A DNA stretch of 64,000 nt from Escherichia coli. Lineage in GTDB: Bacteria > Pseudomonadota > Gammaproteobacteria > Enterobacterales > Enterobacteriaceae. Where the stretch lies: the NCBI RefSeq assembly GCF_009931435.1, contig NZ_CP043414.1; one strand, given 5' to 3'. Position numbers: made by a program. Positions 41,301 through 42,575 of this stretch are shown piece after piece (within the stretch, counting starts at the first letter, position 1; each line of letters starts with the position of its first letter).

Positions 41301-42575
41301 AGTCCTGCATCAGCACCCTTGCCGGGCGGTAGGCAATTTCACGGTCAGCATGGGCATTTTTCAGCCATCCCACCAGCGCGTAGATATCCTCTTCGGTAAC
41401 CGAGTTACCATCCTGCCAGCGCAGCAGGTTTTCGAGCAAAACTTTGAGTGACTTAGGCAGACGGGTGATATCGCCCAGTGATTTGGCAGCAAGCGGCAGG
41501 CTGTAGTAGTGGTAAGTTTTATCTTTGGCCTGCAACGTGTCCTTACTGGCTTCTCGTAGGGTTGACGACATAGCTCCTCCTTAATGACAGGGTTGCGAAG
41601 CCCTGATTCTCTTCAGGGTGAATATTAAAGATAACACAAACATTGCGTAACGATTTGATAACAACCCAAATTGATAAAAGAGGAGAAACCTTGTGGCAAA
41701 GAAAATGAAAACCCCGCCGCAGCGGGGTCAGGGATCAGTGAGTAATGATCCAGAGGAGTTCGGCCCAGAAGAGCATCGACAGAGAAAATGCGCCCATCCA
41801 GGACCAATATTTCATATTTGTGTTGATCATAGGCTACACCCTTAACGGTTATTACTTTGTGTTGAGATAACTCAACCTGTTATTGCTGCGGTGTATTAAA
41901 AGCCCTTTAATTCATTAAAAATGGGTAATAAGAATGATGATAATTATTGTTTCGGCTGATCATCTTCAGCAAACAGTTCTATAAAGGCTTGCTGCTGCGT
42001 TGTTAGTTGCCAGTCGTCTGGAATAACGACGGAACATTCCCGTTTCGTAACTGGTTCATTGTCACTATGCTGACATAATGGTGACGACTCCAGTTGCTCC
42101 TGACCGACCATAGTTATCCCCACACTTTCCAAATCAGCAGTGCGACAACCACCCAGAAGAGTGCAGAACCAAGAAATACCGCCAGCCAGGCTTTGCGTTT
42201 TAATTCAGGGTCCCGGCGGGGTTCCTGATTTCCAGAAGGCATTGCTAACCTCATATAATCGCCATCACTTATCAGCAAGACGTTGAACGATTGGTGTAAT
42301 TAATCATACGATGAGACAAATCCTAAAGAAACTTTAGTCAAAAATCCAGCGAATTTACGAATCGTCTCCAGTGAATAATTCAATCTTTTGACCTGAAATA
42401 GATATTTGAAAACTGGAGTTTGCGAGGCGGGTAATTAGACACTACTTTACAGGTAATTTACCCTATAAATATGAGGGATAAAAATATTGTGCACGGTATA
42501 CAAATAAGCAACAAAAGAGAATATATTCCGGCACCTTCGCTACATAAAAGGTGCCGAAAATAACGCAAGAAATTA

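What the first reader, a model, noticed from the sequence alone, without database searches (positions are those of the whole stretch)
41735..41830. Unlisted 31-codon hydrophobic ORF in the acnA upstream region, ending at an intrinsic terminator
The minus strand encodes MINTNMKYWSWMGAFSLSMLFWAELLWIITH (ATG at 41830, stop at 41737-41735). The stop lies in the ascending arm of the CCCCGCUGCGGCGGGG-UUUU terminator at 41700-41727, and a weak SD-like AAGGG sits about 11 nt upstream of the ATG. The sequence looks like a single-TM small protein. It is too short for the ORF track and I cannot assign it to a named gene with confidence.
Basis: seen in the sequence. Interest (0 to 1): 0.3.

Follow-up and report, generated by a model that had tools for sequence, protein, structure and literature searches.

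The report
Known small membrane protein gene ymiC
The 31-codon reading frame upstream of acnA is real, but it is the already named and experimentally validated E. coli small membrane protein gene ymiC, so the finding is correct and ordinary.

Summary
The ORF at window 41735-41830 (minus strand) is present exactly as described. It is ymiC (K-12 b4741), the last gene of the ymiA-yciX-ymiC cluster between cysB and acnA. RefSeq annotates the identical protein. Curated NCBIfam (NF041484) and Pfam (PF23694) models match well above their cutoffs. Deletion and overexpression gave no phenotype, so the molecular function is unknown.

My own tests agree. The frame is kept at 31-33 codons in six other Enterobacteriaceae loci, with pN/pS of 0.36 in frame against 0.93 and 1.45 out of frame. 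The terminator hairpin is kept through compensatory changes. One detail is wrong: the stop codon lies 5 nt upstream of the hairpin, not inside it.

Side observations: Rfam's "sRNA" family STnc180 (RF02079) covers exactly this ORF plus its terminator and appears to be the ymiC mRNA segment. YmiC also looks like a diverged paralogue of YmiA. The element is already known and of low interest.

The parts
41735..41830 (-). ymiC coding sequence (31 codons plus TGA), encoding small membrane protein YmiC
   Evidence: ORF listing. Identical to RefSeq WP_001310756.1 and to K-12 b4741. NCBIfam NF041484 scores 66.3 bits against a cutoff of 42. Pfam PF23694 scores 87.5 bits against a cutoff of 27.
41836..41843 (-). 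Weak Shine-Dalgarno-like AAGGGTGT, 8 nt between the AAGGG and the ATG
   Evidence: Read directly from the sequence. A GGTGT core recurs at the same distance in L004, L008 and L009. Not tested functionally.
41700..41729 (-). Intrinsic terminator: 8-bp hairpin 41729-41710 plus U-rich tail 41709-41700
   Evidence: Pattern scan. Fold dG -16.4 kcal/mol, z -3.57. Across six loci every cell is paired and 3 of 8 pairs show compensatory changes.
41701..41903 (-). Full-length match to Rfam RF02079 'STnc180'. It spans the ymiC leader, ORF and terminator, so it is the ymiC mRNA segment.
   Evidence: 204.1 bits against a gathering score of 50, model positions 1-208 of 208. The family hits only the loci that carry ymiC. 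Sittka 2008 found no discrete sRNA, only a ~2000-nt signal.
41861..41897 (-). ymiC leader elements: invariant block AATACAC..CAGCAA (41897-41883) and hairpin GTTGAG-TTAT-CTCAAC (41876-41861)
   Evidence: The block is invariant across six loci. A hairpin of different sequence sits at the same position in most orthologues. Function unknown.
41944..42111 (-). yciX, middle gene of the cluster
   Evidence: RefSeq annotation of the homologous locus. tblastn orthologues in nine loci.
42114..42254 (-). ymiA, first gene of the cluster: a small membrane protein and probable distant paralogue of YmiC
   Evidence: NCBIfam NF000536 96 bits. Pfam PF22868. hhalign YmiC against YmiA gives probability 92.9%, with 0 of 600 column shuffles reaching the observed score.
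38896..41571 (-). acnA (aconitate hydratase A), the downstream gene. It starts 163 nt after the ymiC stop.
   Evidence: ORF listing and annotation.
41626..41642 (-). TGTTTGTGTTATCTTTA, a published PhoP-binding site in the proximal acnA promoter, downstream of the ymiC terminator
   Evidence: Pattern match. The identical sequence is reported as a PhoP site, with EMSA of a 231-bp acnA promoter probe, in PMC10294627. It lies within the block conserved in all loci.

Best explanation
The ORF is ymiC, a genuine protein-coding gene for a 31-residue single-pass inner-membrane protein. It is the 3'-most cistron of the ymiA-yciX-ymiC cluster, which sits between cysB and acnA on the same strand.

**Shown by published experiments**
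- The protein is made from the chromosome.
- Its start codon carries initiating ribosomes, and that signal rises under Mg2+ starvation.
- Transcription depends on PhoQ and comes from the region upstream of ymiA, not from the region just upstream of ymiC.
- GFP-YmiC localises to the cell periphery.

**Shown here**
- The reading frame and a K-Y-W-S-W...S-x-L-F-W core are under purifying selection across Enterobacteriaceae.
- A structurally conserved intrinsic terminator follows the stop codon. It most simply ends the small-protein transcript and insulates acnA, which has its own conserved proximal promoter downstream of the terminator.

**Inferred**
- K7 faces the cytoplasm, giving an N-in orientation.
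- By analogy with other PhoQP-induced small membrane proteins (MgrB, MgtS, PmrR), YmiC probably acts by binding a larger membrane protein through its transmembrane helix. That helix carries an invariant Ser18 and an always-polar Glu/Gln24.
- The partner is unknown, and no phenotype has been found on deletion or overexpression.
For: **Identity**
- Identical RefSeq protein and gene name.
- NCBIfam equivalog NF041484, 66.3 bits against a cutoff of 42.
- Pfam PF23694, 87.5 bits against a cutoff of 27.
- Present in 5421 of 5426 complete E. coli genomes.

**Published experiments**
- SPA-tag detection with the identical sequence (PMC6001520).
- Ribo-RET induction at low Mg2+, PhoQ-dependent reporter, operon assignment, GFP membrane localisation, and no deletion or overexpression phenotype (PMC11429745).

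**Conservation measured here**
- Orthologous ORFs of 31-33 aa in the same position in L004, L005, L007, L008, L009 and L010.
- Ten invariant columns in the protein alignment.
- Pooled pN/pS 0.36 in frame, against 0.93 and 1.45 in the shifted frames. Third codon positions vary in 21 of 25 columns, second positions in 10 of 25.
- Hydropathy of residues 9-30 is +1.21, and position 24 is always E or Q.

**Terminator:**
Against: - No molecular function, partner or phenotype is known. Deletion and overexpression had no effect.
- The gene is dispensable in some lineages. It is absent from two Citrobacter loci and from E. albertii.
- No PhoP box within 2 mismatches lies upstream of ymiA, so the PhoQP dependence may be indirect.
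- Conservation does not fall on one helical face, which gives no support for a single defined interaction surface.
Confidence: 0.93

Rival explanations
1. ymiC acts mainly or additionally as a regulatory upstream ORF for acnA. Ribosomes terminating 5 nt before the hairpin would occlude its 5' arm and suppress termination. Transcripts from upstream promoters would then read through into acnA in step with ymiC translation. This does not exclude YmiC also being a functional protein.
For: - Adams et al. 2021 list ymiC-acnA among validated small ORFs that have an RNA 3' end less than 200 nt downstream, as candidate uORF regulators.
- The stop-to-stem spacing is 5-6 nt in the window and in L004, L005, L007 and L009.
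- The ~2000-nt Northern signal for the STnc180 probe in Salmonella shows that longer transcripts cover this region.
- PhoP reaches both the operon and acnA.
- From memory only, and not verifiable here: Cunningham, Gruer and Guest 1997 mapped a distal acnA promoter about 407 bp upstream of the coding region, which would place ymiC in a long acnA leader.
Against: - The peptide sequence itself is under purifying selection, with ten invariant residues. A pure spacing uORF would not need that.
- The spacing is not kept everywhere: 37 nt in L008 and 63 nt in L010.
- E. albertii keeps the terminator with no ORF at all. Citrobacter lacks both the ORF and the terminator, yet both keep the conserved proximal acnA promoter.
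- The minimum-free-energy fold of the whole 213-nt transcript keeps the terminator hairpin, and no competing antiterminator appears.
- A terminator a few nucleotides after the stop codon is common for the last gene of an operon.
Confidence: 0.1
2. The element is a non-coding Hfq-associated small RNA (STnc180, as typed in Rfam), and the ORF is incidental.
For: - Full-length match to RF02079, 204 bits.
- Five cDNA reads in the Hfq co-IP against one in the control.
- The leader contains a hairpin kept in several genera and an invariant block.
Against: - The original study did not detect a small RNA. It saw a ~2000-nt species and called it a likely processed mRNA.
- The Rfam consensus itself reads as an intact 31-codon ORF.
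- The substitution pattern is coding-type.
- The helices the model places inside the ORF are no better supported than shuffles: 76.8% of cells paired against 72.1%, with 13 of 500 shuffles as high.
- The outer leader stem is broken in two of six loci, with no compensatory change.
- The protein has been detected experimentally.
Confidence: 0.03
3. It is a chance open reading frame in an intergenic region, with no function.
For: Short ORFs are abundant here: 37 of at least 20 aa in 1.8 kb. ymiC is absent from some relatives.
Against: The frame, length and motif are conserved across genera at near-saturated synonymous divergence. Curated family models exist. Expression has been shown experimentally.
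Confidence: 0.01

Closest known systems
YmiC (E. coli K-12 b4741; NCBIfam NF041484; Pfam PF23694)
   Same: Identical amino-acid sequence, the same position between yciX and acnA, and the same strand and terminator.
   Different: Nothing at the protein level. The surrounding 701 bp is at most 99.4% identical to any complete E. coli genome in the collection.
YmiA (NCBIfam NF000536; Pfam PF22868), first gene of the same cluster
   Same: A small single-pass membrane protein that is co-transcribed and PhoQP/low-Mg2+ induced. The invariant residues of both families align without gaps as K-x3-W-x3-F-x2-S-x-L-F-W. hhalign gives probability 92.9%, E 3.8e-7, and 0 of 600 shuffles reach the observed score.
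   Different: YmiA is 46 aa and has an 18-residue polar N-terminal extension. E. coli YmiC does not reach the curated YmiA models, and only 3 of 7 orthologues touch NF000536, at E of 0.017 or worse. YmiA overexpression delays growth and elongates cells, whereas YmiC overexpression does nothing.
PhoQP-regulon small membrane proteins MgrB, MgtS and PmrR
   Same: Under 50 aa, a single transmembrane helix, and induced at low Mg2+.
   Different: Those three have known partners (PhoQ; MgtA/PitA; LpxT). YmiC has none, shows no phenotype, and shares no sequence similarity with them.
Rfam RF02079 STnc180 'Enterobacterial sRNA'
   Same: The same nucleotides: the model covers the ymiC leader, ORF and terminator.
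   Different: It is typed as a non-coding sRNA, but the evidence points to an mRNA segment.
Leader-peptide or uORF transcription attenuators (for example mdtU-mdtJI in Adams 2021)
   Same: A short translated ORF followed by an RNA 3' end upstream of a larger gene.
   Different: No alternative antiterminator structure was found. The peptide is conserved as a membrane protein. The ORF is dispensable in relatives that keep the acnA promoter.

Membership tests
YmiC (NCBIfam NF041484 equivalog / Pfam PF23694) | Score above the curated whole-protein cutoff | tested here: met
   NF041484 66.3 bits against 42. PF23694 87.5 bits against 27, covering positions 1-31 of 31.
YmiC (NCBIfam NF041484 equivalog / Pfam PF23694) | Sequence identity with the reference K-12 protein and the same genomic position (yciX / acnA) | tested here: met
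   Translation identical to the L001 annotation and to the VanOrsdel table. K-12 b4741 lies between yciX and acnA.
YmiC (NCBIfam NF041484 equivalog / Pfam PF23694) | About 30 aa with one hydrophobic transmembrane segment | tested here: met
   31 aa. Kyte-Doolittle mean of residues 9-30 is +1.21, against -0.57 for residues 1-8.
YmiC (NCBIfam NF041484 equivalog / Pfam PF23694) | The protein is actually made and inserted in the membrane | not testable with these tools
   Literature only: SPA tag, Ribo-RET and GFP localisation.
Rfam RF02079 STnc180 (sRNA) | Covariance-model score above the gathering threshold | tested here: met
   204.1 bits against 50, full length.
Rfam RF02079 STnc180 (sRNA) | Non-coding: conservation explained by RNA structure rather than by a reading frame | tested here: not met
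   Intact conserved ORF with pN/pS 0.36 in frame. In-ORF helices are not distinguishable from shuffles. The outer leader stem is broken in 2 of 6 loci.
Rfam RF02079 STnc180 (sRNA) | Accumulates as a discrete small transcript | not testable with these tools
   Sittka 2008 Table S3 reports a ~2000-nt Northern signal and the text calls it a 'likely processed mRNA species'.
Leader-peptide / uORF attenuator of the downstream gene | Alternative terminator and antiterminator structures governed by ribosome position | tested here: inconclusive
   No competing structure appears in the MFE or centroid fold of the 213-nt transcript. The stop codon is 5 nt from the stem, so a terminating ribosome would overlap it.
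Leader-peptide / uORF attenuator of the downstream gene | Conserved geometry between the ORF end and the terminator | tested here: not met
   5-6 nt in five lineages but 37 nt in L008 and 63 nt in L010.
Leader-peptide / uORF attenuator of the downstream gene | The ORF and the regulated gene share a transcript, with read-through that responds to translation | not testable with these tools
   Needs TSS, Term-seq and reporter data. Only an indirect listing exists in Adams 2021.
YmiA family (NCBIfam NF000536 / Pfam PF22868) | Score above the curated cutoff | tested here: not met
   The window's YmiC has no hit to either YmiA model even at E up to 10. Three of 7 orthologues hit weakly, best E 0.017. 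The profile-profile comparison still supports distant homology.

The most novel reading that the evidence does not exclude
ymiC has two roles. Besides encoding a membrane peptide paralogous to YmiA, its translation to a stop codon 5 nt before the terminator hairpin tunes read-through into acnA. This would couple PhoQP/Mg2+ signalling, and the small-protein operon, to aconitase A expression. On this reading the Rfam 'sRNA' STnc180 is the terminated product of that attenuator.
Probability: 0.08. Interest if true: 0.45.

Novelty: already known. Interest (0 to 1): 0.08.

Why it matters
The finding itself adds nothing new. ymiC has been named, annotated in RefSeq, modelled in Pfam and NCBIfam, and validated experimentally since 2018. 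It does show that reading raw sequence can recover a genuine 31-codon gene.

Two by-products may be useful:
- An Rfam family typed as a non-coding sRNA (RF02079) appears to be the mRNA of a small protein and may deserve re-typing.
- The two membrane peptides of the ymiA-yciX-ymiC cluster look like diverged paralogues. This suggests testing a ymiA ymiC double mutant, because single deletions of each showed no phenotype.

Tried and rejected
- **Queries too short.** I worked around this by anchoring on the AcnA N-terminus and by the exhaustive representative search. That search found only 10 clusters at E up to 1e-3, several of them frameshifted E. coli variants.
- **PhoP box upstream of ymiA.** None within 2 mismatches. 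The window-wide count of 14 equals the chance expectation of 14.4.
- **Distal acnA promoter.** I could not retrieve Cunningham 1997 or any text giving the -407 start point, so it remains unverified recall.
- **Adams 2021 supplements.** The files held as text contain no 'ymiC' entry, so the exact mapped 3' end could not be read. The Vellappan supplements are not held.
- **5' leader structure.** A MAFFT plus RNAalifold run on the leader gave no consensus pairs. Model-guided alignments show the outer stem is kept only by sequence conservation.
- **In-ORF RNA helices of the Rfam model.** Not significant.
- **One-sided helical conservation in YmiC.** Not significant: moment 0.043 against a shuffled mean of 0.055.
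- **Degenerate ymiC remnants.** A motif search in the Citrobacter, E. albertii and Mangrovibacter gaps found none.
- **Structure prediction.** Not attempted, because a 31-residue single helix would not be informative.

Full report
**1. The observation**

- A G+C-rich hairpin follows it (41729-41710, 8 pairs), then TTCATTTTCT. As RNA it folds at -16.4 kcal/mol, z = -3.57, and no shuffle of 200 folds as well.
- The SD-like AAGGG lies at 41843-41839, with 8 nt between it and the ATG.
- One detail is off. The TGA (41737-41735) is 5 nt upstream of the stem, not inside its ascending arm.
- A 31-codon ORF alone means little here: 37 ORFs of at least 20 aa overlap the surrounding 1.8 kb.

**2. Identity**

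- A 701-bp query around the ORF matches 5421 of 5426 complete E. coli genomes. RefSeq annotates ymiA, yciX and 'ymiC: small membrane protein YmiC' under it.
- In the best hit the ymiC CDS translates to the identical 31 residues.
- K-12 MG1655 carries ymiC as b4741 at 1335572-1335667, between yciX and acnA.
- NCBIfam has an equivalog model (NF041484, 66.3 bits, cutoff 42). Pfam has a YmiC-like family (PF23694, 87.5 bits, cutoff 27).

**3. What is already published**

- VanOrsdel et al. 2018 detected the chromosomally SPA-tagged protein. They list the same sequence and coordinates, and note a signal in an earlier tetracycline ribosome-profiling screen (PMC6001520).
- The Yadavalli-lab preprint (PMC11429745) used retapamulin start-site profiling and placed YmiC among 17 small proteins induced by Mg2+ starvation.
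  - Induction is PhoQ-dependent and driven from the region upstream of ymiA. The region immediately upstream of ymiC had negligible activity.
  - It assigned ymiC to a ymiA-yciX-ymiC operon and showed GFP-YmiC at the cell periphery.
  - It found no phenotype on deletion or overexpression.
- Adams et al. 2021 list ymiC-acnA among validated small ORFs with an RNA 3' end within 200 nt downstream, as candidate uORF regulators (PMC7815308).

**4. Independent evidence gathered here**

The homology tools refuse a 31-aa query. I therefore fetched loci through the AcnA N-terminus, which does not pre-select for ymiC.
- **Frame.** tblastn and ORF extraction find a 31-33-aa orthologue between yciX and acnA in Enterobacter cloacae, three other Enterobacter-labelled genomes, Pseudocitrobacter faecalis and Superficieibacter electus. 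Ten columns are invariant, and the consensus is MNN....KYWSWMGAFS.S.LFW.Q..W.
- **Selection.** Over the 25 ungapped core codons, pooled pN/pS is 0.36 in the annotated frame, against 0.93 and 1.45 in the two shifted frames. Third positions vary in 21 of 25 columns, second positions in 10 of 25. Synonymous sites are close to saturation (pS 0.5-0.99), so this understates the constraint.
- **Terminator.** Across six loci all 48 pair cells of the hairpin are standard pairs, and 3 of 8 pairs show changes on both sides.
- **Family size.** The family is narrow. An exhaustive search of 1.84 billion representatives finds only 10 clusters at E up to 1e-3, and several are frameshifted E. coli variants.

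**5. Distribution**

- ymiC is absent from two Citrobacter loci that keep ymiA and yciX.
- It is also absent from E. albertii, where the whole three-gene cluster is missing. The terminator hairpin, with a compensatory C-G to U-A change, and everything downstream of it remain.
- More distant Enterobacterales have cysB next to acnA with no small genes between them.
- No degenerate remnants were found.
- The roughly 130 nt proximal to acnA are nearly invariant in all loci. They contain TGTTTGTGTTATCTTTA (window 41626-41642), which a Salmonella study reports as a PhoP-binding site in the acnA promoter (PMC10294627).

**6. How it most likely works**

- **Shown:** a translated, membrane-located peptide; PhoQP-dependent and induced at low Mg2+; selected as a protein; followed by a conserved intrinsic terminator.
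- **Inferred:** the terminator ends the small-protein transcript and insulates acnA, which has its own promoter downstream. By the positive-inside rule, K7 puts the N-terminus in the cytoplasm.
- **Inferred mode of action:** by analogy with MgrB, MgtS and PmrR, YmiC probably acts by helix-helix contact with a larger membrane protein. The invariant Ser18 and the always-polar Glu/Gln24 inside the helix are the kind of residues that drive such contacts.
- The partner is unknown, and the lack of phenotype leaves this step open.

**7. Rivals**

- **(a) A regulatory uORF for acnA.**
  - For: the 5-6-nt stop-to-hairpin spacing in five lineages, and the listing in Adams 2021.
  - Against: selection on the peptide itself, spacings of 37 and 63 nt in two lineages, E. 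albertii keeping the terminator without the ORF, and the absence of any competing antiterminator fold.
  - My recollection that Cunningham et al. 1997 mapped a distal acnA promoter about 407 bp upstream could not be checked.
- **(b) A non-coding sRNA.** Rfam RF02079 (STnc180) matches 41701-41903 full length at 204 bits and hits exactly the loci that have ymiC.
  - Its consensus reads as an intact 31-codon ORF.
  - Sittka et al. 2008 saw only a ~2000-nt species and 5 reads against 1, and called it a likely processed mRNA.
  - The in-ORF helices of the model are no better than shuffles, and the outer leader stem breaks in two loci without compensation.
- **(c) A chance ORF.** Excluded by the conservation and expression data.

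**8. Side finding: YmiC resembles YmiA**

- tblastn aligned YmiC to the transmembrane part of YmiA at 40% identity over 25 residues.
- The invariant residues of the two families coincide without gaps, as K-x3-W-x3-F-x2-S-x-L-F-W.
- hhalign gives probability 92.9% and E 3.8e-7.
- None of 600 column-shuffled YmiC profiles reaches the observed score of 30.7. The shuffled means are about 10-11, and the maximum is 25.8.
- Three of seven YmiC orthologues weakly touch the NCBIfam YmiA model.
- The preprint does not use the words paralog or homolog.
- This supports an old tandem duplication within the cluster. Transmembrane profiles are prone to false similarity, though, and the alignments are small. 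I also supplied a few terminal residues of the YmiA rows by assumption where tblastn started at residue 2.

**9. Verdict**

The element is an already known, annotated and experimentally validated gene, so novelty is nil and interest is low.

Noticed in passing
window 41701-41903 (-): Rfam family RF02079 'STnc180', typed as an enterobacterial sRNA, matches full length (204 bits) and covers exactly the ymiC leader, ORF and terminator. Its consensus reads as an intact 31-codon ORF, and it hits only the loci that have ymiC. The original study saw only a ~2000-nt transcript. The family looks like a small-protein mRNA segment rather than a non-coding RNA.
   Followed up: yes
window 41735-41830 (-) compared with 42114-42254 (-): YmiC and the transmembrane part of YmiA share their invariant residues in one ungapped register (K-x3-W-x3-F-x2-S-x-L-F-W). 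hhalign gives probability 92.9%, and 0 of 600 column shuffles reach the observed score. This suggests the two membrane peptides of the cluster are diverged tandem paralogues. The main ymiC study I read does not mention it.
   Followed up: yes
L003 2239-2500 (Escherichia albertii): E. albertii lacks ymiA, yciX and ymiC altogether: cysB ends 262 bp before acnA. It still keeps the ymiC terminator hairpin (GACCTCGC-TACG-GCGAGGTT, with a compensatory change) and the whole downstream acnA promoter. There the terminator directly follows cysB.
   Followed up: partly
L002 2216-2500 and L006 2019-2500 (Citrobacter): The two Citrobacter loci keep ymiA and yciX but have neither a ymiC-like ORF nor the terminator in the gap before acnA. 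ymiC has therefore been lost, or was never gained, independently of its operon partners.
   Followed up: partly
window 41626-41642 (-): TGTTTGTGTTATCTTTA lies 55-71 nt upstream of the acnA start codon and downstream of the ymiC terminator. It is the exact sequence reported as a PhoP-binding site in the acnA promoter of Salmonella Enteritidis (PMC10294627). No comparable PhoP box lies upstream of ymiA, although that operon is reported to be PhoQ-dependent.
   Followed up: partly
window 41861-41897 (-): The yciX-ymiC spacer holds a block that is invariant across genera (AATACAC..CAGCAA, 41897-41883), followed by a hairpin (41876-41861) whose sequence differs between genera. ACACC in the block is complementary to the GGUGU of the ymiC ribosome-binding region, so SD sequestration is possible. 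That pairing is broken in 2 of 6 loci and shows no compensatory change.
   Followed up: partly
window about 41926-41948 (-): The AT-rich AATAATTATCATCATTCTTATTA overlaps the yciX stop codon. It corresponds to the position (acnA -371) where Chen et al. 2007 predicted a strong Fur-site cluster of 17.6 bits. That would place it about 100 nt upstream of ymiC rather than at the proximal acnA promoter.
   Followed up: no
window 42526-42559 (-): A 13-pair terminator-like hairpin sits directly after the cysB stop codon but has a poor T-tract (TATATTCTCT). Together with the ~2000-nt Salmonella transcript detected with the STnc180 probe, this raises the possibility of cysB read-through into the small-protein cluster.
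   Followed up: no
window 41759-41761 (-), codon 24 of ymiC: Position 24, in the middle of the predicted transmembrane helix, is Glu or Gln in all seven orthologues. Ser18 is invariant. Overall conservation is concentrated in residues 7-22 rather than on one helical face.
   Followed up: partly
proteins P0001, P0002, P0003, P0005, P0006, P0008 (representative search): Several database clusters are frameshifted, truncated or read-through variants of the E. coli YmiC sequence. One example is a 63-aa form that runs through the terminator. They are either assembly errors or occasional natural disruption of the gene.
   Followed up: no
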